From NCBI GenBank assembly GCA_902588745.1, contig CACIQI010000005.1:14070-78069 (forward strand): DNA of 64,000 bases, written 5' to 3'. Below are positions 45,375 through 64,000 of the stretch, one piece after another. Made by a program: the position numbers and the translations under genes. The notes below the pieces were generated by a model that saw only the letters and a list, made by a program, of their open reading frames with translations, was not told the origin of the DNA and made no database searches. The stretch's first letter is position 1. Every line of letters starts with the position of its first letter. Origin of the DNA: an uncultured Alphaproteobacteria bacterium. Lineage in GTDB: Bacteria > Pseudomonadota > Alphaproteobacteria > HIMB59 > GCA-002718135.

Positions 45375-46142
45375 TTATTTAGCTGTCCATCCTCCATCAA
45401 TTACTAGTGATGAACCAGTCATCATTGAAGCAGCATCTGAAGCAAGATACACTACAGCACTAGCAATATCACTTTCTGTTGCTACTTTTCCTAAAGGTAT
45501 GTTTTCAATTACAGATTTTTTAAAACTTTTATCTTTAAAAAATTTTTTGACCATTGGGGTTTCCACAAATGTAGGGCAAACGGAATTAACTCTGATGTTG
45601 TGCTTAGCCAAATCAATAGCCATCCCTTTGGTAAGACCTTCAACACCAAACTTAGTCATATTATAAACACTTCTAAGAGGAGCGCCTACTTTACCTAACT
45701 GAGAAGAAATATTTATTATTGATCCACCAATTTTTTTTCTATTTTTTGATTTAAGCATAACTTTTGTAGCTAATTGAGCAATATCGAATGATGCTTTAAT
45801 ATTAAGATCAACCACTTCACTCATATCTTTTCTTTTAATTTTGGTGAAATATTCAGGTCTATTTGTACCAGCATTATTTACTAATATGTCTAATTTATTA
45901 ATTTCTAAAAATATTTTTTTTATTTCTTTTAAATTAGTTACATCACACACATAATAACTACATTTCTTTTTGAGTTTTTTAATTTTGTTTTGAACAATTA
46001 AAAGATCTTTCTCTGTACGACTAAGAATTATTACATTTGCGCCTGCTTCTGCTAATGCTATAGCACATGCTTTACCTATGCCTTTGCCTGACCCTGTCAC
46101 AAGAGCAGTCTTATTTTTTACATTAAAATTTTTTAGAAACAT
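45375..46142 (-). CDS. short-chain dehydrogenase/reductase (SDR, FabG/gluconate-5-dehydrogenase-like)
   Basis: 255 aa with TGSGKGIG, NNAG and YNMTK. Confidence 0.88.
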   Translation of the reverse strand: MFLKNFNVKNKTALVTGSGKGIGKACAIALAEAGANVIILSRTEKDLLIVQNKIKKLKKKCSYYVCDVTNLKEIKKIFLEINKLDILVNNAGTNRPEYFTKIKRKDMSEVVDLNIKASFDIAQLATKVMLKSKNRKKIGGSIINISSQLGKVGAPLRSVYNMTKFGVEGLTKGMAIDLAKHNIRVNSVCPTFVETPMVKKFFKDKSFKKSVIENIPLGKVATESDIASAVVYLASDAASMMTGSSLVIDGGWTAK

Positions 46143-46155
46143 TTGATCTGATTAT

Positions 46156-46815
46156 TTACAATGAAAAAATAGATTGATCTAATAAATTCATTTTTTTAAT
46201 ACACATTTGAAAACTATCTTCTAAATGGTAATCGCCTGGAAACCCAATGCATTTAATTCCAGCGTTTACGGCAGAATTACTACTTTCTTCAGTATCCTCT
46301 ATTGCAATACAATCTTCTGGCTGTAAATTTAATTTATCTAATGTAACTTTATAAATTTCTGGATGTGGTTTTTCATTTTTAACAAATGATTTATTACCAA
46401 TGAATTCAAATTCTTCTTTTGAAATTTGACCAGAAAGACTTTCAAATACTGCATCGACATTATTTAAAGTTGTAGAAGTTGAGAAAGCAAGTTTAATATT
46501 ATTATCTTTTGTATACTTAATTATTTCATCAACGCTCTTTCTTAATTTTTGTTTATTCTGAATAATGAACGAGCTAAAGATTTCTGTTTTTCTATTTCTA
46601 ATTTGTGAAGCATTTACATTAACATTATTTTTTTCAGCAAAATCTTCTACCCTTTTTGTCCCTCCAGATTTTTTTAACAAAATTTTATAGTCTTGCTCAT
46701 CCCAATACCAATCAAGTCCAGCTTCTTTAAAAGCTTCATTAAATGAGTTACGTTGAATGTTAGAAGATTCAATTAGTGTCCCGATAGATCCAAATAAAAG
46801 TGCTTTATATTTCAT
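46156..46815 (-). CDS. HAD-IA-like (CbbY/beta-phosphoglucomutase-like) protein with degenerate motif I
   Basis: 219 aa. Motifs II-IV are recognisable (FSTST, EKPHPEIY, IEDTEESSNSAVNAG), but motif I reads LLFGSIGTL instead of F-D-x-D-G-T-L. Confidence 0.75.
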   Translation of the reverse strand: MKYKALLFGSIGTLIESSNIQRNSFNEAFKEAGLDWYWDEQDYKILLKKSGGTKRVEDFAEKNNVNVNASQIRNRKTEIFSSFIIQNKQKLRKSVDEIIKYTKDNNIKLAFSTSTTLNNVDAVFESLSGQISKEEFEFIGNKSFVKNEKPHPEIYKVTLDKLNLQPEDCIAIEDTEESSNSAVNAGIKCIGFPGDYHLEDSFQMCIKKMNLLDQSIFSL

Positions 46816-46834
46816 AAGATTAGAAATTTTATTA

Positions 46835-47716
46835 TTAACCTTTTACTGCTCCAGCAGTTAAACCACTTATTAATTGTCTTTGGAAAAACATGATTATCAT
46901 AAAAAGTGGTGCAGTTGCTGAAACAACACTTGAGACTGCCCACATATAATTTCCACTATGTTCAATTGTGCCCAAATAAGCATTAATTTTAGGAACCATA
47001 GTATAATTCTGCTGATTTAAAAGAAGTGAAGTAACTGTAAAATCATTATAGGCTAACATCATACTGAATAACCCTGCTGTAACAACTCCAGGCCACATAA
47101 CAGGCATTATAACAAAGCGAAACGCTTGAAAATATGAACAGCCATCAATTAGCGCACTTTCATCTAACTCTTTAGGAACTGTTTTAAAGAAGGAATAAAG
47201 TAACCATAATGTAAAGGGTTGATTGATTGCAACTAAAACAATTATGGTAGTTGGAAGTATGCCCCAAACGTTCAATTGGAAGAAAGGAAATAGATAACCA
47301 GAAACTAATGTAATGTGTGGCATCGCTCTAAAAATCAATGCAGCTATTAAGATCCAAAAAGTATATTTATATGTCGATCTAGACAAGGCATAAGCACCTA
47401 ATGTTCCTAAAAATAAAGAGATTGTAACAACTGAAACAGTAATAATAATTGTATTCATTGTTGCTTTCCAAAATTCACCTTCAGTCCAAGACTCTACATA
47501 TGCCTTAACTGTAGAAGTATCTCCTGTTTCTATCAAAGTATTAACTCCTGTGACTGCAAACATCCAATCAGCTCTTGAGAAAAAGTCGGCTTTTACTTTA
47601 AATGATCCCCAAAAAGTCCATATAAAAGGAAACACGGAAATAATTAACCAAGCAAGAATAAAAAAACTATTTATTAAAATTAGTTGTTTTGAGTATCTGT
47701 TAATTTTTGATTCCAT
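46835..47716 (-). CDS. CUT1 sugar ABC permease (MalG-like)
   Basis: 293 aa with the EAA loop LDESALIDGCSYFQAFRFVIMP. Confidence 0.85.
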   Translation of the reverse strand: MESKINRYSKQLILINSFFILAWLIISVFPFIWTFWGSFKVKADFFSRADWMFAVTGVNTLIETGDTSTVKAYVESWTEGEFWKATMNTIIITVSVVTISLFLGTLGAYALSRSTYKYTFWILIAALIFRAMPHITLVSGYLFPFFQLNVWGILPTTIIVLVAINQPFTLWLLYSFFKTVPKELDESALIDGCSYFQAFRFVIMPVMWPGVVTAGLFSMMLAYNDFTVTSLLLNQQNYTMVPKINAYLGTIEHSGNYMWAVSSVVSATAPLFMIIMFFQRQLISGLTAGAVKG

Positions 47717-47717
47717 A

Positions 47718-48746
47718 TTATCTTTCCGTTCTAAATTCTCTCCATGTTCTTATAAGTACTGGTGTTAATAGAATTGCTACACCAATAATAGTTAACATAG
47801 ATGTTGCTCCTGCAGATCCAAATAACATTTTGTTTTCACTTCTTAAGTCATTATAAATCATCCAAGAAAGTGATTGAGCAACTCCTTCAGCAGCGAACCC
47901 GATTATTGGCTCAAGAACCCTAAAATTATCCATTAGACAAATTAATATAATAAATGTTGCTACCGGATAAAGATGTGGAATAACAATGTGTCTGACTCGT
48001 TCATATCTTGAGGCGCCATCTATGATCGCTGCTTCAATTGGATCTTGAGGAACAGTTTGTAATGCAGCATAAAAGACAACAAAAGCAAATGGTGTATTGT
48101 GCCAAATCCCATAAATAATCAGAGTAATCCAAGTCAATTGACTTGAGGACTTTAGTGATAGGTTTGGATCATCAAATAAGAATTGAATAAATGAACCTAA
48201 TATTCCCTTAGCATCTATCATCCAAAATAAAACGAGAGATCCAATCAATGGTGTTACAATCATAGGCAGTATAACACCAAAAATGGTTGGGCCTTTTAAA
48301 CTTTTTGTAATTGTATTTACACTTAAAGCAACGATGAAACCTAAAACTACAACTGGTGGTGTAACGGCAAAACAAAATGTAAGTGTAAATAAAAGTGCTT
48401 TGTAAAAAGGTAAATTTAGTAAGATATCCGTAAACTCAGCTATGGATGAGGAATTAGTCCAAGCCTCTTTAATTTCATCAAAAGCTAAATGATTTCTATC
48501 GCCGTATGTTCCTAAACCATTAAATCTTCCAAGAGGCTGTTCCTCTTGTAATTTTGTAGTGGCCTCAATATCTACTTTAGTTTCAGTTTTACATCCAAAT
48601 GGATCGCATTTTTCTACTTCCATTAAAATTTGTTCAGGTTCAATATGTAGAGATTGAAAAAAACTAGAAATAATTGGAAGTCCAATAAATAATAGCATTG
48701 CCAATCCACTTGGAAAGAAGAACCAAAAAAATGTTCTGTGGGGCAT
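47718..48746 (-). CDS. CUT1 sugar ABC permease (MalF-like)
   Basis: 342 aa with the EAA loop IEAAIIDGASRYERVRHIVIPHL. Confidence 0.85.
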   Translation of the reverse strand: MPHRTFFWFFFPSGLAMLLFIGLPIISSFFQSLHIEPEQILMEVEKCDPFGCKTETKVDIEATTKLQEEQPLGRFNGLGTYGDRNHLAFDEIKEAWTNSSSIAEFTDILLNLPFYKALLFTLTFCFAVTPPVVVLGFIVALSVNTITKSLKGPTIFGVILPMIVTPLIGSLVLFWMIDAKGILGSFIQFLFDDPNLSLKSSSQLTWITLIIYGIWHNTPFAFVVFYAALQTVPQDPIEAAIIDGASRYERVRHIVIPHLYPVATFIILICLMDNFRVLEPIIGFAAEGVAQSLSWMIYNDLRSENKMLFGSAGATSMLTIIGVAILLTPVLIRTWREFRTER

Positions 48747-48766
48747 CTATTTCTTACTAAAAAAAA

Positions 48767-48790
48767 AGTGGAACATAATAATGTTCCACT
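48767..48790 (-). terminator. hairpin plus T8 tract between the binding-protein gene and the first permease gene
   Basis: The minus strand reads AGTGGAACAT-TATT-ATGTTCCACT (10-bp stem) followed by TTTTTTTT, 12 nt before the permease ATG (48746). Confidence 0.7.
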
Positions 48791-48812
48791 TTATCATAAA
48801 TATTTATACGGT

Positions 48813-50048
48813 TTATAGAAATCCTTGCTCAGTAGCTTTTGCTACATAAGCAGCTTCTACATCCGCTAATGCTTTTTCAGCAGACTCATTTCCTTGAAGG
48901 AATTCAACAAGTTCTGTACTCAAAGCACCATGTAATAGACTCATGTATGGTAAGCTTGGGTAAGGTGTTGCACCTCTATTAGCAGCGTCAACAACTGGCC
49001 CTGCTGTATCTCCAGGCGAATAACCATCAATCAACCAAATTGTTGCATTTGGATTAGCATTTGCCATTTCTGTTGAAGTTGCTGCACCTAAAAGAGCTCT
49101 AAAAGATGCTTCTGCATTTTCATCAGAAGTGTTTGTTGCAATTCCAAATCCATCCCACCATAGAGTTGTTGCTGGTTTACTTCCACCACCTACAGATGGA
49201 GAAGGAGCTAATCTAGTATCAGCTTTAATTGCTTGATCACCTTCGTCATCTAACAATGAAGCTGCACCTGAGTTCCAGATATGCATTAATGCTACATTAC
49301 CAGACTCCCATTCTTCTTTAACTGCATTTGTATCTTGAGTTAAGAAATCAGGGTTACTTACTTCGGTTAATCTTTTAAGCATATTAAGAGCAGCTACACC
49401 TTTAGCGTTATTTACACTAACTTCAGCTGTTCCAGCTTTAAAGAAATCACCTCCATGACCTAGGTACATGTTTACAAACTCTTGACCTAAGTTCCATCCA
49501 GATTTGAAAGCACCAGCATATGGGTTAGCCATTTTACCAGAAGCTTTAATTTTTTCTGCAGCCGCAATTACCTCTTCATATGTTGAAGGAACTGCGATAC
49601 CTAAATCATTAAGAATACTTTCTCTGTACCAAAGATGTTGAGCATTAGCCATAAATGCTACTGCATAAATTTTACCATCAATCACGATTTTTTGATTGTC
49701 TTGTAATGCACTTCCGTATTTAGCAACTAAATCATCAAGTGGACGAATTAAGTTATCATTCATTAAAGTTGTAATTGAACCATTAGTAACAAGTTTAGCA
49801 GAGAATTCAGCTGGGTTAGCTGAAAGTGCTGCAACTTGTAATTTATTATGATCAACAGAATGTGTTACAGAAAAATCTGCATCAGGTCCTGCACAACTTT
49901 TTACTTCATCCATGAAAATTCTGTATGTTGTAAATTCGTTTGCTAGAATCTTTATTGATCCATCTGTTACTCCACAAGGTGAGTGCCCACCGGCATATGC
50001 ACTTGTGCTAACAAATGTGAACAATAGAGCTATTAATAGTTTTTTCAT
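48813..50048 (-). CDS. extracellular solute-binding protein family 1 (CUT1)
   Basis: 411 aa. Signal peptide ...FVSTSAYA followed by GGHSPC. Operon-first position. Confidence 0.85.
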   Translation of the reverse strand: MKKLLIALLFTFVSTSAYAGGHSPCGVTDGSIKILANEFTTYRIFMDEVKSCAGPDADFSVTHSVDHNKLQVAALSANPAEFSAKLVTNGSITTLMNDNLIRPLDDLVAKYGSALQDNQKIVIDGKIYAVAFMANAQHLWYRESILNDLGIAVPSTYEEVIAAAEKIKASGKMANPYAGAFKSGWNLGQEFVNMYLGHGGDFFKAGTAEVSVNNAKGVAALNMLKRLTEVSNPDFLTQDTNAVKEEWESGNVALMHIWNSGAASLLDDEGDQAIKADTRLAPSPSVGGGSKPATTLWWDGFGIATNTSDENAEASFRALLGAATSTEMANANPNATIWLIDGYSPGDTAGPVVDAANRGATPYPSLPYMSLLHGALSTELVEFLQGNESAEKALADVEAAYVAKATEQGFL

Positions 50049-50070
50049 ATATTTCCCCTTATTAATAAAG

Positions 50071-50083
50071 TGTGAAATTCACA
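50071..50083. promoter_or_regulatory. LacI/GalR-like palindrome TGTGAA-A-TTCACA upstream of the binding-protein gene
   Basis: Perfect 6-bp arms, 23-35 nt upstream of the binding-protein ATG (50048). Half-sites resemble GalR/CcpA-type TGTGAA half-sites. Confidence 0.4.
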
Positions 50084-50131
50084 TTTAAGTATAAATCCTT
50101 TATATTGGTATTAGAAAATAATGCAATAATA

Positions 50132-50157
50132 TGAATTGATATTCAAGATTTTGAATA
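50132..50157. promoter_or_regulatory. array of TGAAT/ATTCA half-sites including TATTCA-N6-TGAATA, 20 nt upstream of the LacI gene
   Basis: TGAAT 50132-50136, TATTCA 50140-50145 and TGAATA 50152-50157. The same motif recurs at 52787-52804 and 56989-57006. Confidence 0.5.
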
Positions 50158-50177
50158 TTGAAATGGGGGGATAATTC

Positions 50178-51176
50178 ATGAGTTTTAAAAAGACTGCGAC
50201 ATCACAGGACGTAGCAAAACTAGCAGGAGTATCCCAATCAGCTGTTTCTAGATGTTTTACAAAAGGTGCTAGCATTTCTAGTAGAACAAAATTGAGAGTC
50301 TTGGAAGCAGCTAGGAAATTAAAATATAAAGCACCTAATATATCTTCTAATTCAATATCTAATGACGATAGCGGATTAGTTGCTGTCATTTTACCTTACG
50401 TTACAAGCAGATATTATCCAGAAGTTTTAATAGAGTTACATGAAGCACTTAGGAATGGGGGGTTTAGAATTTTATTAATTACAACTGATGATGGAGAGGA
50501 ATTAGATGAAAAATTAATACAGCCATACTTAAAAGAAAAACTTATTGCAATAATATCAGCCACAAAACCTACTGAAAAATTTGTTGAAGACTGCAATCAA
50601 AAAAGAATACAGTTTATTGCCTATAATAGAAGTTGGAATATACCAACGATAAGTTCCGTTGCATGTGATCATCGTAACGGAGGAGAAATAGTTGCAGAAT
50701 ATTTTACAAATAAAAATCATAAAAATATTGGTCTCATTGAAGGGCCAAAAGGATCTTTTGTTAGCGATGAGCGATGCAAAGGTTTTAAAAATTATCTTAA
50801 AAATAATAAAAAAATTAAATTAAATATTGAAAAAGGTTTTTTTACTTATGAAGGTGGATATCAAGCAACTGAAAAAATTTATAATAAAAACATAAGTGCA
50901 ATATTTTGCGCTGACGACACAATGGCATTTGGTTGTTTAGATTATATTAAAAAAAATACTTCGTTAAAAACACCTTCTCAATTAGAAATTATTGGTTATG
51001 ACGATATATCTATGTCAGCTTGGGAATCATATAACCTAACAACTGTCAGACAGCCTATTAGACAAATGTCAAAACTAGCAACTCAATTAATAAATGAATT
51101 TATTAAGGATCCAGATTTTGAACCTATAAATCATATTGTACAGGGAAGACTTATAAAAAGAAAAACTACAAAATAA
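50178..51176 (+). CDS. LacI family transcriptional regulator
   Basis: 332 aa. N-terminal HTH ATSQDVAKLAGVSQSAVSRCF plus a periplasmic-binding-fold effector domain. Confidence 0.9.
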   Translation: MSFKKTATSQDVAKLAGVSQSAVSRCFTKGASISSRTKLRVLEAARKLKYKAPNISSNSISNDDSGLVAVILPYVTSRYYPEVLIELHEALRNGGFRILLITTDDGEELDEKLIQPYLKEKLIAIISATKPTEKFVEDCNQKRIQFIAYNRSWNIPTISSVACDHRNGGEIVAEYFTNKNHKNIGLIEGPKGSFVSDERCKGFKNYLKNNKKIKLNIEKGFFTYEGGYQATEKIYNKNISAIFCADDTMAFGCLDYIKKNTSLKTPSQLEIIGYDDISMSAWESYNLTTVRQPIRQMSKLATQLINEFIKDPDFEPINHIVQGRLIKRKTTK

Positions 51177-51177
51177 T

Positions 51178-51597
51178 TTATTTAAATTTTAATCCCATCT
51201 GTTCAAAAACACCATGATTATCTACCATAACGTAATTATCTAAAAACTTTCCATCTTTAATGGTCCAAAAATCTGAAAATTGCATTTTGATAGATTTGCC
51301 TGTTGGCTCTACTCCAAGATATGTTCCACTATGTGTACCTGTTAGAAATCCCGTTGCACTAATCCACTCACCTTCAGCAACCACAATATCATTTTTTACA
51401 TGATAATCTGGAAATGCTTCATAAAAAGGTTTTAGAACTTTATATTTAAAATTTTCTATACCATGGATATCACCAAAACCTGGAGGACCATGCCAGACCA
51501 TATTATCATGCCAGTACTTGTGTTGTGCTTCTAGATCTTGAGCATTAAGTGCATCATACATATCAGCTAATAATTTTTTACTTTCATCTAAAGTCAT
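51178..51597 (-). CDS. single-domain NTF2/SnoaL-like protein (predicted ester cyclase type)
   Basis: 139 aa. YWHDNMVWHGPPGFGDIHG...TGTHSG.YLG..PTGK......DFW.I.DGK pattern typical of SnoaL-like ester cyclases. Confidence 0.75.
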   Translation of the reverse strand: MTLDESKKLLADMYDALNAQDLEAQHKYWHDNMVWHGPPGFGDIHGIENFKYKVLKPFYEAFPDYHVKNDIVVAEGEWISATGFLTGTHSGTYLGVEPTGKSIKMQFSDFWTIKDGKFLDNYVMVDNHGVFEQMGLKFK

Positions 51598-52733
51598 TTT
51601 TTATCTCCTAAAATTTGCATTAGAATTGCAAGCTCATTAAAACCAGTCCACTCTTTAATAATTTTATTATTTTTAATTTCCCATTGTGTGATTCCCCACA
51701 AATACACTTCTCTATTAGTTGGTTGGCCATATGAGCCATTCCCTTTATGCGTTCCTACTGCGCCCCAACGAACCGATACTAAATAGCCGTCTTTTGTATT
51801 TCCCATCCAGTATAAATCTTCAATACTAAGTGCAAGATCAGGAAATGAAGCTAAAATTGAAATTATAAATTTTCTTAATTGCAAAACTCCTTTAAATTTA
51901 CGACCAGTTGAACCTTCAAATTCTACCTTACTAGAGTATGCTTTATTTATTGCAGAAAAGTTTCGTCTATTCCAAATTGTATCATAAACTGCATGAACAA
52001 ACTCTCTTACATTTGTAATTTTATCTGGAATATCAAAACTAATTGGTTTTAATTTAGTAATATTTCTTGTTGGCTTAGAGTTTTTAAAGTGAGGAGCATA
52101 GGGCCCTGAAATTCCATCATCAACAAGTTGCTTGGCAACTTGATTTAAATCTAATCCGAGTTGTTTAATTAAACCTGCTGTATCGTAGACAACATTTTCG
52201 TAATAAATTTCATTATTTTTTGCTACACAATTTGCAATACAAAATAATCTTACTTTTTTACCAGTTGGTTTAGAAAATTTGCTAAATCCTGTATTTGTTC
52301 CGGTAATAATTGTTCTATGCGAAGTATGAAAACTTGCGTTTTCATTTCCTGCCCAAATAACTTCATCTGCAAATAATCGAATATCTGGAAAGGCGTTGTT
52401 TGTGTGTACAGTATCAGCTACTATTTTTTCAGATCCAGATTGTAAACCAAATTCATCCCAAACTCTGCAATCTTTACTGTAGGTATCATAGATGTAGCCA
52501 ATATTTTTTTCTTCCCAGATTTGATATGTAATCCTTACAATATAATCAATTATATTTTTATACTGATCCTCAAACCCCTTCATTGATTGATGTTTAAGTT
52601 TTTTTGGTTTTGGATTTAATGACTTAGCAGTTCCTCCACCACCGTATGCTTTTAATGAAATATCATAACTCTTAGGCATATGATGATCTTGAAGGGCTTC
52701 TGGTCTTTTATCTATAATTTTTTTAAATTTCAT
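51594..52733 (-). CDS. two-domain NTF2/SnoaL-like protein, type I (paralog of 54978-55970)
   Basis: 379 aa with two tandem SnoaL-like halves (ITYQIWEEKNIGYIYD...VIWAGN...TGKKV and VYDTIWNRRNF...VRWGAVGTHKGNGSYGQPTNREV). Confidence 0.65.
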   Translation of the reverse strand: MKFKKIIDKRPEALQDHHMPKSYDISLKAYGGGGTAKSLNPKPKKLKHQSMKGFEDQYKNIIDYIVRITYQIWEEKNIGYIYDTYSKDCRVWDEFGLQSGSEKIVADTVHTNNAFPDIRLFADEVIWAGNENASFHTSHRTIITGTNTGFSKFSKPTGKKVRLFCIANCVAKNNEIYYENVVYDTAGLIKQLGLDLNQVAKQLVDDGISGPYAPHFKNSKPTRNITKLKPISFDIPDKITNVREFVHAVYDTIWNRRNFSAINKAYSSKVEFEGSTGRKFKGVLQLRKFIISILASFPDLALSIEDLYWMGNTKDGYLVSVRWGAVGTHKGNGSYGQPTNREVYLWGITQWEIKNNKIIKEWTGFNELAILMQILGDKK

Positions 52734-52766
52734 AATTTGTATTTGTAATGAGATACATTTAAAAAT

Positions 52767-52804
52767 ATTTCAAAGCAATGAAATTTTATTCAAAAAAATG
52801 AATA
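52767..52804. promoter_or_regulatory. tandem inverted repeats ATTTCA-N6-TGAAAT and TATTCA-N6-TGAATA, starts 20 bp apart
   Basis: Read directly: 52767-52784 and 52787-52804, centred in the 107-bp divergent spacer between the two SnoaL-like genes. Confidence 0.5.
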
Positions 52805-52840
52805 TTGTCTTTTTTAGTTTATTAATATAATCAAAATGGA

Positions 52841-53845
52841 ATGACTGATCTCCAAGCAGAAAAAAAATTAGTATTAGATTATTTCAATGAAATAGATAGT
52901 TGCAACATTGATTCATTATCTGAAGTTATATCCAAATACGCATCAGAAGAATTTAGTATGAAATGTACCCACCCATTCAACGAACTAGGTAGTATAGATC
53001 TTGTTGCTAATAATCTTTGGAAACCAATTAAAGATTCATTTTCACCTATACAACGTCGATTAGATATATTTTATGCTGGGATAAATTCATTAGATAAAAA
53101 TAAAGGTAAATGGATCTCCAGTATGGGTCATTTCATGGGTGTTTTCAATAAACCGTTTGTAGGCCTTAAACCAAATTATAAATCTACTTTATTAAGATTT
53201 GCTGAATTTTATAAAGTGGAGAATAATAAAATTACTGAAGGAGTAATTTTTTTAGATGTAATGAATTTAATGCAGCAACTAGGTCTTTCTATAATTCCTG
53301 AATCTACAGGTCTCGTTTGTGTAACACCAGGACCAATGAATCATAAAGGTTTAAAATTTGATATTTCTAATGAAAGTGAAAGTCAAAAAACATTGGATTT
53401 AATTCATAGAATGCGCGATCGACTTGTTAAAGGATCCAAAATGCAATCTTATAAAGAAGAATTAGAATTAGATTGGCATAATGACATGATTTGGTGGGGA
53501 CCAGGAGGTATAGGGGCTTCATATACTATTGATGGTTATCAAAAAGGTCATACAAAACCATTTCAAGATGGTTTAGAATTTGTTCGTTTCAATGGACACA
53601 TACTTAGTAGCTCTGAAGATGATCTCGGAGGTTGGTTTGGTTGGCCAAATTTAATTATGAAACCTAAAGGAGAATATTTAGGATTAACAAATGCAAGTGA
53701 TATTGAATCAGAAATGAGAGTTGTAGATTTATATCGAAGAGATGGAGATAAACTAGCTGAAAACTGGATCTTTATTGATCATTTACATTTTTTAAAAAAA
53801 CTAGGAGTGGATCTTTTAGAAAGAGCAAAATTTTTAAATCAGTAA
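52841..53845 (+). CDS. two-domain NTF2/SnoaL-like protein, type II (paralog of 57045-58142)
   Basis: 334 aa. The C-terminal half WHNDMIWWGPGGIGASYTIDGY resembles the single-domain protein 51178-51597. The N-terminal half is a more divergent NTF2-like domain. Confidence 0.6.
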   Translation: MTDLQAEKKLVLDYFNEIDSCNIDSLSEVISKYASEEFSMKCTHPFNELGSIDLVANNLWKPIKDSFSPIQRRLDIFYAGINSLDKNKGKWISSMGHFMGVFNKPFVGLKPNYKSTLLRFAEFYKVENNKITEGVIFLDVMNLMQQLGLSIIPESTGLVCVTPGPMNHKGLKFDISNESESQKTLDLIHRMRDRLVKGSKMQSYKEELELDWHNDMIWWGPGGIGASYTIDGYQKGHTKPFQDGLEFVRFNGHILSSSEDDLGGWFGWPNLIMKPKGEYLGLTNASDIESEMRVVDLYRRDGDKLAENWIFIDHLHFLKKLGVDLLERAKFLNQ

Positions 53846-54973
53846 TTAGATAACTTTTGAGGCAAGTTTAGTACCCTCAACTAATGCATGAAGCTTTTCA
53901 TAACAAATTTTTTCATCAATTTTTCCAAAACCAGCAAATGTACTAAAACCACAATCTGTCCCTGCCATCAATTGATCTTTTGGAATGACTGTAGAAAACT
54001 GAATTAATCTATCTGCAACAACTTCTGGATGCTCAACAAAATTAGAGGTTGAGTCGATTACTCCAGGTACTAAGACTTTATCTTTTGGTAACTTTATATC
54101 TTGAAAAACTTTCCATTCATGTGCGTGCCTAGGATTAGAAGATTCAATGAGAAAGTATTTTACCTTTGATTTCAAAATTATAGGTAATATTTTCTCTAGA
54201 GCAATATCGTGTGTGTGGGGTCCTTCATAATTGCCCCAACATATATGCATTCTAGTTTGCTCAACATCTACATTAGATAATGCTAAGTTTAGACATTCAA
54301 TTTGTAGTTCTGCACGTTTTATAAACTCATCTTCAGATAAATTTTTAAAATTCATATGTCTTGCTAAAGCAAGGTCTGGGCAATCTAATTGAACTTGGAT
54401 ATCTGATTTTGTTATTAGCTCATATTCTTTGGCCATAATATTAGATAATTTATCCAAATATTCATCTTCGGTACTATAAAATTTATTTGGCATAAAAACA
54501 TTTATGACGCCAGGTGATGCTGAGTTCATAAATGCATGTCGGTGATTAAGTTTATCAAGTGAATTTTTAAAATTATTTATATCCTGTAGAAGAGAAGTTT
54601 CATCTTTTACTTTTAATTCGTTTGTACAACATGGTCTGGTATAAGTTGGAGTGCCACCACTTTTAGCAATCTTTTCTTTGTATTCTGGAAAATCATCAAG
54701 ATCAGCAGGTGCTCTTCTTTCGCTTTCACCTGAGAACCCATCAATTCTGTCTTTAATATATGTAGCGTAGCTAATTTTACTCATCTCCCCATCACTGACA
54801 AAATCAATTCCAACATCAAGTTGGCTCTTAACAACACTTTCCACGTTATTTTTTAATACTTCATCAAAACTACTTTGACTAAATTTCTCTCCTTTATCTT
54901 TTGCAAATAGAAATTCTGAAAGTTCTTTTGATCTAGGAAGGCTTCCAACATGTGTTGTTAAAATATTAGACAT
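53846..54973 (-). CDS. core-only cobalamin-independent methionine synthase-like protein (MetE C-terminal domain family)
   Basis: 375 aa with TTHVGSLPRS, DGEMSK, HICWGN and GTDCGF blocks. Confidence 0.75.
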   Translation of the reverse strand: MSNILTTHVGSLPRSKELSEFLFAKDKGEKFSQSSFDEVLKNNVESVVKSQLDVGIDFVSDGEMSKISYATYIKDRIDGFSGESERRAPADLDDFPEYKEKIAKSGGTPTYTRPCCTNELKVKDETSLLQDINNFKNSLDKLNHRHAFMNSASPGVINVFMPNKFYSTEDEYLDKLSNIMAKEYELITKSDIQVQLDCPDLALARHMNFKNLSEDEFIKRAELQIECLNLALSNVDVEQTRMHICWGNYEGPHTHDIALEKILPIILKSKVKYFLIESSNPRHAHEWKVFQDIKLPKDKVLVPGVIDSTSNFVEHPEVVADRLIQFSTVIPKDQLMAGTDCGFSTFAGFGKIDEKICYEKLHALVEGTKLASKVI

Positions 54974-54977
54974 TAAA

Positions 54978-55970
54978 TTAACCTGTTTTTAATAAAATCT
55001 GTTTCCAGATCATAGTTTCATCATAGAGAACCCATTCATTTTTAATACCTCTTTCTCCAAATTCAACATGATTAATACCCATTATATAAATTTTCGAATT
55101 AGAGGCTTTCCCAAAAAGACCATCTCCTTCATGTTTACCTACCATAGACCATCGAACTGAAGCTTTTTTAGGTTCATATTTTTCTTCTGTAAAAGCAATG
55201 TGCTCAACTGAGAACAATGCGTTAGGAAAAGCATCTCTTAATTGTTTCCAAAATTTTATTACCTCATCTCTACCATAGTGAGTATTTCCCCCTGGTTGAA
55301 ATTGCTGTATGGCTCTGTCATAACTATCATTTATTGTTTTCTCTAAATTGATGTTCATAATAGAGGTTAAGATATTTGCATATAATTCTCCAATGTTACC
55401 AGATGCTAAAATAGGAGATTTATAAATTGATTTAACAGGTGTATTTTCATCAAAGGGTTTACTAGCTTTTTCAGGACCACCCTCATCTTTAACAAGATTA
55501 CTTGCAAATTTCTTGGGGTCAATTCCAATTTGTCTCACAATTGCTCCTTGATCTCTCACAAGCCACTCATCATAAACTTGATTATTCATGCATGCACAAT
55601 CAGCGATAGTTCGGTAATATAGTTTTTTTCCTGTTGCTTTCCCATACATCCCATCAACAGAATGAGTAGAGGTTGATAAAATGCGATGCGACGAAAAATA
55701 TCCCTCATCATCATTTCCTGTCCAAATTACATCTTCACCTAAAAGTGTTCTATCGGGAAATAGTTTTTTACTAGCATAGGTACTTTCAATTACTGGGTCT
55801 GCACCATAAATTACTCCAGATGGAGATCTTGTAGGTGTGGGGAGGCTTACATTTGGAGTATCAGCATAATAATCTCTTATTGCTTCAACATCGTTTTTTT
55901 CCCAAATTTGATATGTAATCTTTAAAATATAATCAGGAAAATCTTTGAATTGTGAATCAAATCCTTTCAT
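54978..55970 (-). CDS. two-domain NTF2/SnoaL-like protein, type I (paralog of 51594-52733)
   Basis: 330 aa. FKDFPDYILKITYQIWEKNDV...VIWTGNDDEGYFSSHR...ATGKKL and VRWSMVGKHEGDGLFGKASNSKI parallel the paralog. Confidence 0.65.
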   Translation of the reverse strand: MKGFDSQFKDFPDYILKITYQIWEKNDVEAIRDYYADTPNVSLPTPTRSPSGVIYGADPVIESTYASKKLFPDRTLLGEDVIWTGNDDEGYFSSHRILSTSTHSVDGMYGKATGKKLYYRTIADCACMNNQVYDEWLVRDQGAIVRQIGIDPKKFASNLVKDEGGPEKASKPFDENTPVKSIYKSPILASGNIGELYANILTSIMNINLEKTINDSYDRAIQQFQPGGNTHYGRDEVIKFWKQLRDAFPNALFSVEHIAFTEEKYEPKKASVRWSMVGKHEGDGLFGKASNSKIYIMGINHVEFGERGIKNEWVLYDETMIWKQILLKTG

Positions 55971-55981
55971 ATAATTAATAT

Positions 55982-56953
55982 TTAATTAGTTTGTCGTATT
56001 ATAAATAAATTACCATCATGATTACTTATCTGTCTTATTGAACGAAGTGAATTTTTTGGAACAGAAAAAGTATCTTTTTCTTTAATTACAACTTTGTCTC
56101 CATCACAATCTATTTCCCATTCACCAGATAAACAATGATACACTTCTGATTTCTCCAGTTTGTATTCATGTATATGAGCACTCTTGCCGTTGAGAAGTGA
56201 AAGGCTAAAACCTGTTTCATGCGGTATATTTGGAGTAAAAGATTTATCATGAATTTGAAACTGATCAATGTAGTTGATAATTTTATTAGATTGATAGTGA
56301 TCATCATCGACAAAATATTTATCTTTATCATTAAATCGAATAACAAACTTTTCTATGTCTTCTGAAGAGTAATGATCGAAACTCTCTAATTCATTATCTT
56401 CTAATGGCTGAATAATTTTAGTTTCATCTGTTACTTTCTGTTTCTCTGTGTCTATTAAAGAATTATCATTCATTAATACCATGCCAGATTCTTTTGCATC
56501 TTTTAAAAGTTTAGGTGTCCAAGTAATAACACCTGGATCATTTTCACCTAACACAACAAACATTAAAGCTTCTTCATCACTTACATTTTGAAAACCTCTG
56601 AACATGTTTGTGGGAAAAGAAGCGATATCACCTTTTTTTAGTATTACTTCTCCTTCTGTGCCATCAACACCCCAATAAAAACGCCAGGCACCTGAGTGAA
56701 TTATAAAAACTTCTGCTGTTGTGTGACTATGTAATCCAGAGCCATTCATCGGCGCAGCACTGACAGCACCAATATTAAAGCCATGTTCTTCAGCTATTTT
56801 AACATTTTGTTTAGCATCTTCACTTACACCAGGTCCTATAACTGAATAATTTTTCCTATCTTGATGACCTTTTAGTTTTCCCTCAACAAAAGGTATATTA
56901 CTAGGAATAAGTTCATCGAATTTAGCTAATCTAGATGTAATATTAATTGACAT
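55982..56953 (-). CDS. bicupin protein (two cupin domains, both with HxH...E metal-ligand pattern)
   Basis: 323 aa. Cupin 1 is GSGLHSHTTAEVFIIHSG and cupin 2 is GKSAHIHEYKLEKSEVYHCLSG. Confidence 0.7.
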   Translation of the reverse strand: MSINITSRLAKFDELIPSNIPFVEGKLKGHQDRKNYSVIGPGVSEDAKQNVKIAEEHGFNIGAVSAAPMNGSGLHSHTTAEVFIIHSGAWRFYWGVDGTEGEVILKKGDIASFPTNMFRGFQNVSDEEALMFVVLGENDPGVITWTPKLLKDAKESGMVLMNDNSLIDTEKQKVTDETKIIQPLEDNELESFDHYSSEDIEKFVIRFNDKDKYFVDDDHYQSNKIINYIDQFQIHDKSFTPNIPHETGFSLSLLNGKSAHIHEYKLEKSEVYHCLSGEWEIDCDGDKVVIKEKDTFSVPKNSLRSIRQISNHDGNLFIIRQTN

Positions 56954-56968
56954 ATTTTAATGATCTTT

Positions 56969-57006
56969 TATTCATTTTTTTTGAATATTATTCAAAATAA
57001 TGAATA
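56969..57006. promoter_or_regulatory. tandem inverted repeats TATTCA-N7-TGAATA and TATTCA-N6-TGAATA, starts 20 bp apart
   Basis: Read directly: 56969-56987 and 56989-57006, in the 91-bp divergent spacer between the bicupin gene and the type II SnoaL-like gene. Confidence 0.5.
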
Positions 57007-57044
57007 AATCAATTATTATTTAACAATAGTGTTATTAAATTATT

Positions 57045-58142: not shown

Positions 58143-58144
58143 TT

Positions 58145-59464
58145 ATGGCAATAGAATATTTAAAAAAAGGTTTAGACGAAAAACAAAGAATTGAAGATAA
58201 TGATAAAGTAAAAAAAATTGTTGAGGAAACGTTAAGTAAAATTGAATCAGAAGGCGATAAACATATTAGAGAGTTATCTCAAAAATTTGATAACTATTCT
58301 CCAGATAGTTTTAGATTAAGTGAAGATCAAATTAATCAATTAATGAGTGAAGTCTCTGATGATGACAAAGAAGATATTAAATTTGCTCAAAAACAAGTGC
58401 GATCATTCGCGGAAGCACAACTTAAAACTTTAAGTGAATTAGAAGTAGAAACGCATCCAGGTGTGATTCTTGGTCATAAAAATATACCAGTACAAGCAGT
58501 AGGATGTTATGTACCTGCCGGAAAATTCCCAATGGTAGCTTCTGCTCATATGTCAGTTGTTACTGCCTCTGTTGCTGGGGTTCCAAGAATTGTTGCTACC
58601 ACCCCACCATTTAAAGGTAAGCCAAATCCAGCTGTCGTTACAGCAATGAAAATGGGTGGTGCTCACGAAATTTATGTTTTGGGAGGAATGCAAGGAGTTG
58701 GTGCTATGGCTATTGGTACAGAAACTATTAAACCTGTAGATATGCTTGTTGGACCTGGCAATGCATTTGTTGCTGAAGCGAAAAGACAATTGTATGGCAA
58801 AGTTGGTATCGATTTATTTGCTGGTCCAACTGAAACAATGGTAATTGCAGATGAAACTGTTGATGGTGAAATATGTGCAACAGACTTATTAGGACAAGCT
58901 GAACATGGATATAATTCTCCTGCTGTGATGATAACAAACTCAAGAAAACTTGCAGAAGAAACATTTAAAGAAATTGATAGAATTTTAGAAATTTTACCCA
59001 CTAAAGAAACAGCAAGTACAAGCTGGAGAGATTATGGAGAAATAATTTTATGTGATACTTATGAGGAGATGTTATCTAAAGCAAATGAAATAGCTTCAGA
59101 GCACGTTCAAGTTATGACAAAAAAAGATGATTGGTTTTTAGAAAATATGACATCTTATGGAGCTCTATTTTTGGGCGCTAGAACTAATGTTGCTAATGGT
59201 GATAAAGTCATAGGCACTAACCATACTCTTCCTACTAAAAAAGCTGGAAGATATACTGGTGGTTTGTGGGTTGGTAAGTTCATTAAAACCCATACTTATC
59301 AAAAGATTATGACAGATGAAGCTGCAACTCTCATCGGAGAATATGGATCTAGACTTTCACATTTAGAAGGTTTTATAGGTCATGCAGAACAATGTAATGT
59401 GAGAGTAAGACGATATGGGAAAAAAAATGTTGGATATGGAAAACCAGCAGGAGAAAAAATTTAG
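58145..59464 (+). CDS. histidinol dehydrogenase family NAD-dependent 4-electron alcohol dehydrogenase (HisD paralog; sulfopropanediol 3-dehydrogenase HpsN-like candidate)
   Basis: 439 aa with a LLGQAEHG block, a GPGNAFV block and a C-terminal H..E region of the HisD family. No other his genes are adjacent. Confidence 0.85.
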   Translation: MAIEYLKKGLDEKQRIEDNDKVKKIVEETLSKIESEGDKHIRELSQKFDNYSPDSFRLSEDQINQLMSEVSDDDKEDIKFAQKQVRSFAEAQLKTLSELEVETHPGVILGHKNIPVQAVGCYVPAGKFPMVASAHMSVVTASVAGVPRIVATTPPFKGKPNPAVVTAMKMGGAHEIYVLGGMQGVGAMAIGTETIKPVDMLVGPGNAFVAEAKRQLYGKVGIDLFAGPTETMVIADETVDGEICATDLLGQAEHGYNSPAVMITNSRKLAEETFKEIDRILEILPTKETASTSWRDYGEIILCDTYEEMLSKANEIASEHVQVMTKKDDWFLENMTSYGALFLGARTNVANGDKVIGTNHTLPTKKAGRYTGGLWVGKFIKTHTYQKIMTDEAATLIGEYGSRLSHLEGFIGHAEQCNVRVRRYGKKNVGYGKPAGEKI

Positions 59465-59465
59465 C

Positions 59466-59861
59466 TTATTTTAATTCCCCTTTAACTCTCATTTCATTTC
59501 TAATTTTTGTTGCCGAGATATCATGTATTTCTTTTCCTAAATCATGTTCTGTAAATGAATAACCAACTCCTCTTCCATAAGAAATATCTATAATGTTTGG
59601 AACCTTAACAACTACATATTCTTTGCCATCAGTAAAACCATGTTGAGCTAAACCTTCATTGATTTTTGCTTTTACTTCTTCAAATTGAAATGGATTGTCA
59701 GCTTGACCTTCTACACCTGCATCTACACCTCCCACATCACGATACATTATACATACCTGACCTGTTTTCTGAAGTGACCTTTTAAATAATTCTGTATGTC
59801 CATCATGCCATGGTTGCCATCTACCTAACATTTGTACTGTTGGTTTTTTCCAATCAAACAT
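59466..59861 (-). CDS. minimal cytidylyltransferase-fold nucleotidyltransferase (HxGH ... ISxTxxR)
   Basis: 131 aa. GRWQPWHDGH resembles the GRFQPFHxGH of NadM/NadR-type adenylyltransferases. The C-terminus carries ISATKIRNE. 8-nt overlap with the upstream kinase-like gene. Confidence 0.65.
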   Translation of the reverse strand: MFDWKKPTVQMLGRWQPWHDGHTELFKRSLQKTGQVCIMYRDVGGVDAGVEGQADNPFQFEEVKAKINEGLAQHGFTDGKEYVVVKVPNIIDISYGRGVGYSFTEHDLGKEIHDISATKIRNEMRVKGELK

Positions 59862-63695: not shown

Positions 63696-64000
63696 TTATT
63701 GAACTACTGTATCTTTAGGATCAATTCCAGCAACTTCAACTGGCGCCTTCATAGCATCTCTTCTAAAAGGTTCTCCTAGTTCTTGATTTAACATAACTTC
63801 TATAAAAGTAGTTATGCCTTCCATTTGATCTTTGCAAGATTTTTGTAAAGCTTCTGTTAGTTCCTCTTGAGTGTAAACTTTAACACCTTTAAATCCACAT
63901 GCTTCAGCAATCTTTGCATAGCTTAATTTAGGATCAAGTTCTGTTCCAACAAAATTATTATTATACCAAAGTGTAGTATTTCTTTTCTCCGCTCCCCATT
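63696..64000 (-). CDS. C-terminal 101 codons of a TPP-dependent enzyme, sulfoacetaldehyde acetyltransferase (Xsc)-like; continues beyond the right edge
   Basis: Not in the ORF track because it is open at the edge. My minus-strand translation gives ...WGAEKRNTTLWYNNNFVGTELDPKLSYAKIAEACGFKGVKVYTQEELTEALQKSCKDQMEGITTFIEVMLNQELGEPFRRDAMKAPVEVAGIDPKDTVVQ*. The layout is an acetolactate-synthase-like C-terminus. The ELGEPFRRDA tail matches my recollection of Xsc proteins, which is unverified. Confidence 0.55.
   Translation of the reverse strand, partial: WGAEKRNTTLWYNNNFVGTELDPKLSYAKIAEACGFKGVKVYTQEELTEALQKSCKDQMEGITTFIEVMLNQELGEPFRRDAMKAPVEVAGIDPKDTVVQ

What the first reader, a model, noticed from the sequence alone, without database searches (positions are those of the whole stretch)
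58145..59464. HisD-family dehydrogenase outside any his context: candidate DHPS (sulfopropanediol) 3-dehydrogenase HpsN or a new alcohol-to-acid dehydrogenase
The 439-aa protein has HisD hallmarks (QAEHG and related blocks). It is co-directional with a type II SnoaL-like gene, separated by a 2-nt spacer, and no other histidine biosynthesis genes are nearby. It is established that HpsN, which oxidises 2,3-dihydroxypropane-1-sulfonate to sulfolactate, is a HisD homolog. The window also holds candidates for the downstream steps: sulfolactate dehydrogenase candidates (Ldh_2 at 8430-9479, 2-hydroxyacid dehydrogenase at 24987-25922), ComDE-like genes, an Xsc-like gene and Pta. From sequence alone I cannot distinguish HisD, HpsN or another specificity.
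Basis: partly seen in the sequence, partly recalled or inferred. Interest (0 to 1): 0.55.

Follow-up and report, generated by a model that had tools for sequence, protein, structure and literature searches.

The report
HpsN-sister dehydrogenase, probably not HpsN
This intact SAR11 gene is a spare relative of the histidine enzyme HisD from an uncharacterised sister branch of the sulfonate enzyme HpsN; it lacks HpsN's sulfonate-binding histidine and travels with an orphan nutrient-breakdown island, so counting it as a DHPS gene in ocean surveys is probably wrong.

Summary
Window 58145-59464(+) is an intact 439-aa HisD-family (PF00815) gene, 2 nt after a tandem-SnoaL gene, under strong purifying selection (dN/dS 0.05-0.08).

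It is not the housekeeping hisD. Five of six near-complete same-genus genomes carry both a canonical hisD and this gene. In this 80%-complete assembly, hisG-hisD fall in a gap beside contig C24.

It is closest to HpsN (best PDB hit, TM 0.94), but two trees and an AU test put it in a separate sister clade ("clade B").
- Clade B keeps every Zn and catalytic residue and HpsN's anion-binding Lys.
- It replaces HpsN's diagnostic G-R-Y-A/S-H with G-K-F-P-M, so the sulfonate-binding His126 is Met130.

In 77 of 80 SAR11 species loci it follows the same SnoaL gene, inside a LacI/CUT1-ABC/SnoaL/bicupin/MetE-like/SDR island. That island recurs on Roseobacter and Paracoccus plasmids. One Paracoccus plasmid also carries a true HpsN in a separate cysteinolate cluster.

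Most likely it is an NAD/Zn four-electron alcohol-to-acid dehydrogenase for an unidentified intermediate of that island. DHPS is not excluded.

The scan reached the same reading on other SAR11 genomes. New here:
- a 428-aa HpsN-clade paralog that fills the same slot in one genome;
- the two-paralog Paracoccus plasmid;
- the assembly-gap explanation for the missing hisD.

The parts
58145..59464 (+). HisD-family, HpsN-sister ('clade B') NAD/Zn dehydrogenase, 439 aa
   Evidence: ORF and Pfam/NCBIfam matches. Trees and AU test. AF2 model with pLDDT 90.4, TM 0.94 to closed CpHpsN 9cp7. dN/dS 0.05-0.08.
58520..58543 (+). Specificity loop G126-K-F-P-M130-V-A-S133. Met130 sits where HpsN has the sulfonate- and Zn-binding His126.
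   Evidence: Alignment to CpHpsN and RpHpsN and residue mapping. The motif definition is from PMC11382572. The loop is invariant in all SAR11, Roseobacter and Rhizobium orthologs examined.
59198..59206 (+). G352-D353-K354: the Zn-ligand Asp plus the HpsN-type anion-binding Lys (HisD has Tyr here)
   Evidence: residue roles from PMC11382572.
57045..58142 (+). Tandem SnoaL/NTF2-like gene, first gene of the two-gene operon
   Evidence: Pfam SnoaL plus SnoaL_2. Immediately upstream on the same strand in 77 of 80 SAR11 species loci.
56954..57044 (.). Divergent promoter region with two TATTCA...TGAATA inverted repeats (56969-56987 and 56989-57006), putative LacI operators
   Evidence: Read directly from the sequence. 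An earlier scan report, e1-5148528, read them as LacI operators; I did not re-test this.
51178..56953 (.). Rest of the SnoaL island: bicupin 55982-56953(-), SnoaLx2 54978-55970(-), MetE-like core 53846-54973(-), SnoaLx2 52841-53845(+), SnoaLx2 51594-52733(-), SnoaL 51178-51597(-)
   Evidence: Pfam. Synteny in relatives. The same gene set surrounds clade B genes on Ruegeria, Octadecabacter and Paracoccus plasmids.
45375..51176 (.). Transport and regulation end of the island: SDR 45375-46142(-), HAD-like 46156-46815(-), CUT1 permeases 46835-48746(-), solute-binding protein 48813-50048(-), LacI 50178-51176(+)
   Evidence: The SDR ortholog lies directly beside the HisD-like gene in other SAR11 genera (L120-L122) and in Variovorax and Hymenobacter.

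Best explanation
The gene encodes an NAD+-dependent, Zn2+-dependent dehydrogenase of the HisD superfamily. Like HisD and HpsN, it should oxidise a primary alcohol to a carboxylate in two hydride transfers through a bound aldehyde. It belongs to an uncharacterised clade (B) that is sister to HpsN. It is not the housekeeping HisD and is probably not a dedicated DHPS dehydrogenase. It is co-transcribed with a tandem-SnoaL gene from a LacI-type divergent promoter. It serves a roughly 14-kb catabolic island holding a CUT1 ABC importer, LacI, five SnoaL genes, a bicupin, a MetE-like core and an SDR. Its substrate is most likely a small intermediate of that pathway carrying a terminal -CH(OH or NH2)-CH2OH and a nearby anionic or metal-binding group. 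Shown: fold, intact catalytic and Zn residues, clade placement, loss of the sulfonate His, conserved synteny and purifying selection. Inferred: the reaction type, NAD preference (Asp49), operon regulation and the nature of the substrate.
For: 1. Family and fold. PF00815 446 bits. The AF2 model has TM 0.94 and rmsd 1.9 A to closed CpHpsN, against TM 0.86-0.88 to HisD structures.
2. Active site. Zn ligands Gln251, His254, Asp353 and His413 are present, as are catalytic Glu319 and His320, His360, NAD-contacting Asp49 and Phe208, and HpsN-type Lys354.
3. Not HisD. It is 32-36% identical to the SAR11 canonical HisD. Five of six same-genus genomes at 90% completeness or more have both genes. In G000, hisG-hisD fall in an assembly gap next to contig C24.
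4. Not inside HpsN. Clade A (HpsN, verified by context) and clade B are separate, with support 99/96 and 100/99. The AU test rejects joining the SAR11 proteins to HpsN, p = 7.7e-6.
5. Motif. The HpsN motif G-R-Y-A/S-H reads G-K-F-P-M, invariant across clade B orthologs.
6. Context. The SnoaL gene lies upstream in 77 of 80 SAR11 species loci. The same island surrounds clade B genes at 74-75% identity on Ruegeria, Octadecabacter and Paracoccus plasmids. None of 13 non-SAR11 clade B contexts holds hpsO, hpsP, comDE, xsc, suyAB or cuyA. All three clade A contexts do.
7. Co-occurrence. Paracoccus alcaliphilus p77023 carries a true HpsN (GRYAH) in a cysteinolate cluster and a clade B gene in the SnoaL island on one 77-kb plasmid.
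8. Selection. dN/dS is 0.05-0.08.
Against: No member of clade B has been assayed, so the substrate is unknown.

Several points favour an anionic, sulfonate-like ligand. The HpsN-type Lys354 is kept. The genome has ComDE, Xsc and Pta.

In one SAR11 genome (G012, L121) a 428-aa HpsN-clade paralog sits in exactly the same slot. In another (G026, L120) that paralog and the same SDR lie next to the taurine/Pta module with no SnoaL island. I infer this is the type that Liu et al. showed to oxidise R-DHPS weakly. These points keep a DHPS-like substrate alive.

The AU test group was named after the tree had been seen.
Confidence: 0.6

Rival explanations
1. It is a working C3-sulfonate dehydrogenase: R-DHPS or sulfolactaldehyde to sulfolactate, or L-cysteinolate to cysteate. 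It would bind the sulfonate through Zn and Lys354 without the His, and feed the genome's sulfopyruvate decarboxylase, Xsc and Pta route.
For: The nearest characterised enzymes are HpsNs: 403 and 358 bits against 260 bits for HisD, and TM 0.94. Lys354 and all catalytic residues are kept. ComDE, an Xsc fragment and Pta are in the window. A His-less SAR11 HpsN homolog (57% to RpHpsN) oxidised R-DHPS stereospecifically (PMC11131964). A paralog of that kind replaces this gene in the same slot in G012 and pairs with the same SDR beside the taurine module in G026. JGI names close homologs sulfopropanediol 3-dehydrogenase.
Against: His126, described as conserved in HpsN homologs and binding the sulfonate, is Met. 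The gene falls in a sister clade, not inside HpsN. There is no hpsO, hpsP or TRAP, and the island uses a CUT1 sugar-type importer with LacI. Clade B orthologs in Rhizobium, Klebsiella, Priestia, Deinococcus and Variovorax have no sulfonate genes nearby. Paracoccus keeps a separate true HpsN on the same plasmid. The SAR11 homolog that was assayed had Km 106 mM for DHPS, which is not physiological.
Confidence: 0.25
2. It is the organism's histidinol dehydrogenase, or a functional backup for it.
For: It is the only PF00815 hit in this assembly. It passes TIGR00069's cut-off. NCBI names orthologs histidinol dehydrogenase.
Against: The assembly is 80% complete, and hisG-hisD map to a gap beside contig C24. 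Relatives have a separate canonical hisD scoring about 512 bits. The protein is 32-36% identical to those and lies far from them in the tree. It has GDK rather than HisD's GDY. It sits in a catabolic island, while hisB, hisA and hisF are elsewhere.
Confidence: 0.03
3. It oxidises a carboxylate or polyol analogue of DHPS. Examples are 3,4-dihydroxybutanoate to malate, glycerol or glyceraldehyde to glycerate, or an aldonate to an aldarate. It would act in a non-phosphorylative sugar or sugar-acid type pathway. This is a specific version of the best explanation.
For: Klebsiella aerogenes has only LacI, the hisD-like gene and a GntP-family acid permease. In Variovorax the gene pairs with an SDR, LacI, tricarboxylate-type binding proteins, two aldolases and an SMP-30 lactonase. 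Deinococcus, the Roseobacters and Hymenobacter add a cupin, an alpha/beta hydrolase, an aldolase or an FAH-family enzyme. Replacing the sulfonate-binding His with Met while keeping Lys fits a smaller or different anion.
Against: This rests purely on inference from gene neighbourhoods. No such HisD-family activity is known. The neighbourhoods differ between phyla, so one substrate may not fit all of them.
Confidence: 0.2

Closest known systems
HpsN, (R)-DHPS 3-dehydrogenase, EC 1.1.1.308 (Cupriavidus pinatubonensis, PDB 8V35/9CP7, PMC11382572; Ruegeria pomeroyi, PDB 8WWE, PMC11131964)
   Same: Same fold (TM 0.94). 45-47% identity. Same Zn ligands, Glu-His catalytic pair, NAD-selecting Asp and anion-binding Lys. 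Presumably the same four-electron alcohol-to-acid chemistry.
   Different: It sits in a sister clade, not within HpsN. The G-R-Y-A/S-H motif is G-K-F-P-M (His126 to Met130). It has no hpsO, hpsP, TRAP, comDE or suyAB operon and lies in a LacI/CUT1/SnoaL/bicupin island.
SAR11 'CuHpsN' (PU1002_02401, HTCC1002), assayed in PMC11131964
   Same: A SAR11 HisD-family paralog outside any hps operon. It is weakly active on R-DHPS (Km 106 mM) and histidinol (Km 16 mM). By its 57% identity to RpHpsN it matches the 428-aa type found here (L120, L121). That type also lacks the His (GRYNN or GRNNY) and pairs with the same SDR.
   Different: The 428-aa type lies inside the HpsN clade and is only 46-48% identical to the window protein. 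That it equals CuHpsN is inferred from identity values, not checked by sequence.
Bilophila sp. 4_1_30 HpsN, an L-cysteinolate/(R)-DHPS dehydrogenase (PMC12814064)
   Same: It shows that the HpsN clade accepts the amino-alcohol analogue as well. The same cluster type (CuyA/CuyC/CuyB/HpsN) lies on the Paracoccus plasmid that also carries a clade B gene.
   Different: That enzyme keeps CpHpsN's substrate-binding residues and sits with cuyABC. The window gene does neither.
HisD, L-histidinol dehydrogenase, EC 1.1.1.23 (E. coli 1KAE, Brucella 4G07)
   Same: Same superfamily, fold, Zn site and mechanism. The hydrophobic P-L/P-M at the loop position resembles HisD's G-S-A-P-L.
   Different: 29-36% identity. 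GDK instead of GDY. Distant in the tree. Not in a his context. Relatives carry a separate canonical hisD.

Membership tests
HisD superfamily (PF00815) | Full-length match to the family profile and the four-domain HisD fold | tested here: met
   446.5 bits over profile positions 4-411 of 411. Model pLDDT 90.4, TM 0.86-0.94 to HisD and HpsN structures.
HisD superfamily (PF00815) | Zn ligands (Gln, His, Asp, His from the partner chain) and the catalytic Glu-His pair | tested here: met
   Gln251, His254, Asp353, His413, Glu319 and His320. Gln251, His254, Asp353, His413 and Glu319 are invariant in the 24-sequence alignment, and His320 is nearly invariant (at least 90%).
HisD proper (histidinol dehydrogenase, EC 1.1.1.23) | Groups with authentic HisD in a phylogeny | tested here: not met
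   Separated from SAR11 and other HisDs by several well-supported nodes. 32-36% identity.
HisD proper (histidinol dehydrogenase, EC 1.1.1.23) | The genome's only copy, or located with his genes | tested here: inconclusive
   It is the only hit in the 80%-complete assembly. Five of six near-complete congeners have a second, canonical copy. Synteny with G004 places hisG-hisD in a gap at the start of C24. hisB, hisA and hisF are on C2.
HpsN (DHPS 3-dehydrogenase, EC 1.1.1.308) | HpsN-specific motif G-R-Y-A/S-H with the sulfonate- and Zn-binding His126 (PMC11382572) | tested here: not met
   The protein reads G-K-F-P-M; His126 aligns with Met130.
HpsN (DHPS 3-dehydrogenase, EC 1.1.1.308) | Lys353, which hydrogen-bonds the sulfonate | tested here: met
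   Lys354 in G-D-K.
HpsN (DHPS 3-dehydrogenase, EC 1.1.1.308) | Falls inside the clade of HpsNs verified by context | tested here: not met
   It is sister to that clade (100/99 against 99/96). The AU test rejects inclusion, p = 7.7e-6 (the group was named after seeing the tree).
HpsN (DHPS 3-dehydrogenase, EC 1.1.1.308) | Operon with hpsO, hpsP and a DHPS transporter, or with suyAB, comDE or cuyA | tested here: not met
   The neighbours are SnoaL, bicupin, MetE-like, LacI and CUT1 genes. Contrast Leisingera, Rhodovulum and Paracoccus. The island's SDR is only 29-31% identical to HpsO.
HpsN (DHPS 3-dehydrogenase, EC 1.1.1.308) | NAD-dependent oxidation of R-DHPS to R-sulfolactate | not testable with these tools
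   This needs an enzyme assay.

The most novel reading that the evidence does not exclude
Clade B is a new substrate specificity within the HisD superfamily. It would be the alcohol-to-acid step of a widespread orphan pathway (the SnoaL-rich LacI/CUT1 island) for a plankton-derived metabolite not yet identified. The island is present in about 60% of well-assembled Pelagibacterales genomes sampled. Together with the His-less 428-aa type, clade B would account for much of what ocean surveys count as 'SAR11 hpsN', so SAR11's inferred role in DHPS oxidation would be overstated.
Probability: 0.5. Interest if true: 0.7.

Novelty: new variant of a known kind. Interest (0 to 1): 0.55.

Why it matters
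DHPS is a major carbon and sulfur currency between phytoplankton and bacteria. SAR11 has been credited with most open-ocean hpsN transcripts, using homology cut-offs (167 bits to RpHpsN in PMC11131964). This protein passes those easily, at 358 bits. If clade B does not oxidise DHPS, such budgets need re-partitioning. One of the commonest accessory islands of the ocean's most abundant bacterium would then point to an unknown substrate. The case also gives a clear, testable specificity switch (His126 to Met with Lys kept) in a structurally well-understood enzyme family.

Tried and rejected
1. HisD reading: rejected on phylogeny, on the second copy in relatives and on the assembly-gap analysis.
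2. Simple HpsN membership: rejected on the motif, the clade and the context.
3. Literature on the cluster. Searches for 'ester cyclase' plus 'histidinol dehydrogenase', for SnoaL/LacI/paralog terms and for pRL8 found nothing functional. The only result was that pRL80041 is detected in bacteroid proteomes.
4. Naming the 428-aa SAR11 type as HTCC1002 CuHpsN. The search for homologous proteins and the listing of cluster members returned only unnamed hits at 97% identity or more, so the link rests on matching identity values.
5. PDB sequence searches with the island's binding protein, SnoaL protein and bicupin. These gave only remote hits (trehalose/maltose binding protein 46 bits; 'ester cyclase' 8KAA 18 bits; quercetinase 20 bits) and no ligand clue.
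6. The SAR11 binding-protein screen (PMC11485210). It covers HTCC1062's single sugar binder, SAR11_0769 (glucose), not this island's protein.
7. The representative search. It gave no full-length cluster above 49% identity because clade B collapses into the query's own 50% cluster. The plasmid tblastn was what revealed the 54-77% relatives.
Full report
**Observation.** Window 58145-59464(+) is an uninterrupted ATG..TAG frame of 439 codons.
- It matches Pfam Histidinol_dh end to end (446.5 bits) and TIGR00069 (431.5 bits).
- The upstream gene (57045-58142) carries two SnoaL-like domains and ends 2 nt before the start codon.
- The stop lies 1 nt from the stop of a convergent 131-aa gene.
- Homologs at 83-100% identity are very numerous in marine metagenomes and in single-cell genomes named Pelagibacteraceae or uncultured Alphaproteobacteria, so the organism is a SAR11 bacterium.
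- Pairwise dN/dS against four orthologs is 0.05-0.08, so the gene is functional.

**Is it the housekeeping hisD?**
- It is the only PF00815 match in this assembly, but the assembly is 79.6% complete.
- Five of six same-genus genomes at 90% completeness or more carry two matches: a canonical hisD at about 512 bits and the ortholog of this gene at about 445 bits.
- In the closest relative (G004, ortholog 99% identical), the genes downstream of the canonical hisD are 97-99% identical to the first genes of G000 contig C24. The first of these is cut by the contig end. hisD and the genes upstream of it are absent from G000.
- HisG is also absent from G000, whereas hisB, hisA and hisF are present on contig C2.
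- The canonical hisG-hisD pair therefore almost certainly lies in an assembly gap.
- The window protein is 32-36% identical to the SAR11 HisDs.

**Relation to HpsN.**
- The best solved relatives are the DHPS 3-dehydrogenases CpHpsN (403 bits) and RpHpsN (358 bits), ahead of Brucella HisD (260 bits).
- An AlphaFold2 model (pLDDT 90.4) superposes on closed, ligand-bound CpHpsN with TM 0.94 and rmsd 1.9 A at 47% identity. HisD structures give TM 0.86-0.88.
- Every Zn ligand and catalytic residue named for CpHpsN is present: Gln251, His254, Asp353, His413, Glu319, His320 and His360.
- The NAD-selecting Asp49 and the sulfonate-contacting Lys, here Lys354, are also present.
- The structural paper defines an HpsN-specific motif, G-R-Y-A/S-H. 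Its His126 ligates Zn in the free enzyme and binds the sulfonate in the product complex. HisD has G-S-A-P-L there.
- The window protein reads G-K-F-P-M, so His126 is Met130. This loop is invariant in all orthologs examined, from SAR11 to Rhizobium.

**Phylogeny.** I built reference sets from genome context rather than from names.
- The Leisingera caerulea and Rhodovulum sulfidophilum plasmid genes sit in LacI-TRAP-hpsN-SDR(hpsO)-ADH(hpsP)(-comDE) operons.
- A Paracoccus alcaliphilus gene sits in a CuyA/CuyC/CuyB/TauABC cluster of the D-cysteinolate type described in PMC12814064.
- In an 89-row quick tree and a 44-row careful tree, the family members that carry G-D-K form one super-clade (100/99). 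It splits into clade A and clade B.
- Clade A (99/96) holds all context-verified HpsNs and is His-bearing apart from one basal member.
- Clade B (100/99) holds the window protein and its SAR11 orthologs. It also holds plasmid genes of Rhizobium, Sinorhizobium, Ruegeria, Octadecabacter and Paracoccus at 74-77% identity.
- More distant clade B members, at 54-66% identity, come from Klebsiella, Caballeronia, Variovorax, Priestia, Hymenobacter, Deinococcus and Arthrobacter.
- An AU test rejects a tree that unites the SAR11 proteins with clade A to the exclusion of other clade B members: delta lnL 132, p = 7.7e-6. The caveat is that the group was chosen after seeing the tree.
- Lineages branching below A and B have P-L at the loop, so the His looks like a derived feature of HpsN and clade B keeps the older state.

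**Context.**
- In 77 of 80 species-level SAR11 loci the tandem-SnoaL gene lies immediately upstream on the same strand. The bicupin, a second tandem-SnoaL gene and the MetE-like core are found in 66-68 of 80, a count limited by contig ends.
- Five relatives, including another genus, show the full order: ABC permeases, binding protein, LacI, MetE-like, SnoaL, bicupin, then divergently SnoaL and the hisD-like gene. The far flank varies.
- The 91-bp divergent promoter carries two TATTCA...TGAATA inverted repeats. An earlier scan report read these as LacI operators.
- The same gene set surrounds the clade B gene on plasmids of Ruegeria sp. AD91A, Octadecabacter arcticus 238 and Paracoccus alcaliphilus. 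It comprises a CUT1 ABC system, several 'ester cyclase'/NTF2 genes, an SDR, LacI and a cupin. The two Roseobacter plasmids also carry the MetE-like II protein. An alpha/beta hydrolase and an RraA-type aldolase are added.
- Further afield a recurrent core of hisD-like gene, SDR and LacI appears with aldolases, a hydrolase, a cupin or a lactonase in Variovorax, Deinococcus, Roseomonas and Hymenobacter.
- Klebsiella aerogenes has just LacI, the hisD-like gene and a GntP-family acid permease.
- None of 13 non-SAR11 clade B neighbourhoods contains hpsO, hpsP, comDE, xsc, suyAB or cuyA. All three clade A neighbourhoods do.
- P. alcaliphilus p77023 carries both paralogs, each in its own cluster, on one 77-kb plasmid. 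This argues for different jobs.
- In a sample of 81 Pelagibacterales genomes at 80% completeness or more, clade B orthologs (83-100% identity) occur in about 50.

**A third SAR11 type, and evidence that cuts the other way.**
- Five genomes lack clade B but have a 428-aa protein that is 46-48% identical to the window protein.
- It is 56-57% identical to Leisingera HpsN, falls inside clade A and reads GRYNN or GRNNY at the motif, so it too has no His.
- Liu et al. report that the HTCC1002 homolog (PU1002_02401) is 57% identical to RpHpsN. It oxidises R-DHPS stereospecifically but with Km 106 mM, and histidinol with Km 16 mM. I infer, without a sequence check, that this is the 428-aa type.
- In G012 (L121) the 428-aa gene occupies exactly the slot of the clade B gene, after the tandem-SnoaL gene and before the SDR.
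- In G026 (L120) it lies back to back with the same SDR ortholog (75% identical to the window's SDR), next to the Ald/aminotransferase/Pta module, with no SnoaL island.
- Compared with G026, the window looks as if the HAD-like to SnoaL block had been inserted between the SDR and the hisD-like gene.
- The SDR plus HisD-like pair may therefore be the functional unit. Its position among sulfonate genes in SAR11 (ComDE, Pta and Xsc confirmed) keeps a DHPS-like substrate possible. I give that rival 0.25.

**Mechanism proposed.** By homology the enzyme is an obligate domain-swapped dimer. The substrate's C2 hydroxyl or amine and a third group would chelate an octahedral Zn. Glu319 and His320 would act as acid/base, and two NAD+ would be used in turn to take -CH2OH to -COO-. 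This is inferred from CpHpsN and HisD, not tested. Keeping Lys354 while replacing the His with Met suggests an anionic or polar group other than a sulfonate, or a sulfonate bound less tightly. Acid-type transporters (GntP and TTT) and the lactonase, aldolase and FAH partners in other phyla hint at a hydroxy-acid or sugar-acid-like substrate. This remains speculation.

**An oddity.** Between SAR11 and the Roseobacter plasmids the HisD-like protein is 74-77% identical, while its island neighbours are only 28-62% identical. Either the constraint on it is unusually strong or it has moved separately.

**Comparison with earlier scan reports.** Follow-ups on three other SAR11 genomes reached the same verdict: HpsN sister clade, no sulfonate His, orphan island. 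I reached it independently before reading them. New here:
- the slot replacement by the 428-aa paralog;
- the two-paralog Paracoccus plasmid;
- the link to the published CuHpsN kinetics;
- the assembly-gap explanation for the missing hisD;
- the AU test.

**Verdict.** This is a real, expressed-looking gene. It is a new variant within a known enzyme kind. It is neither HisD nor, on the defining features tested, HpsN. Its function is tied to an orphan catabolic island and its substrate is unknown.

Noticed in passing
L121:8071-9357 (G012) and L120:7996-9282 (G026): A 428-aa SAR11 paralog lies inside the HpsN clade (56-57% to Leisingera HpsN) with GRNNY or GRYNN instead of GRY[AS]H. In G012 it replaces the clade B gene in the same slot of the SnoaL island. 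In G026 it sits back to back with the island's SDR ortholog beside the Ald/aminotransferase/Pta module, with no SnoaL island.
   Followed up: partly
L123:9688-16775 (Paracoccus alcaliphilus p77023) and L107: One 77-kb plasmid carries a complete D-cysteinolate-type cluster (CuyA-like desulfhydrase, DegT-family CuyC, racemase CuyB, TauABC-like transporter, His-bearing HpsN, sulfate exporter). It also carries the SnoaL/CUT1/LacI island with a clade B gene.
   Followed up: partly
window 45375-59464 versus L104, L105, L107: The HisD-like protein is 74-77% identical between SAR11 and the Roseobacter, Paracoccus and Rhizobium plasmid orthologs. Every other island protein is only 28-62% identical. The cause could be an unusually strong constraint or separate transfer, and is unexplained.
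   Followed up: no
G000 contig C24 start; L129 (G004:C5:12000-28000): The canonical hisG-hisD region of this genome appears to lie in an assembly gap. Genes downstream of hisD in G004 begin at base 2 of G000 contig C24, and the first of them is truncated by the contig end.
   Followed up: yes
window 26838-27904 and 63696-63998: Sulfopyruvate decarboxylase alpha and beta pass NCBIfam's curated cut-offs, and the right-edge fragment matches the Xsc C-terminus. The Ldh_2 protein at 8430-9479 scores 206 bits against a 500-bit cut-off for L-sulfolactate dehydrogenase, so that assignment is open.
   Followed up: partly
window 59462-59468: The stop codons of the hisD-like gene and the convergent 131-aa nucleotidyltransferase-like gene are 1 nt apart, leaving no room for a terminator between them.
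   Followed up: no
L108 (Klebsiella aerogenes NCTC10006): A minimal unit of LacI-family regulator, clade B hisD-like gene (annotated hpsN) and GntP-family permease lies in an enterobacterial chromosome fragment. This is a tractable organism for finding the substrate.
   Followed up: no
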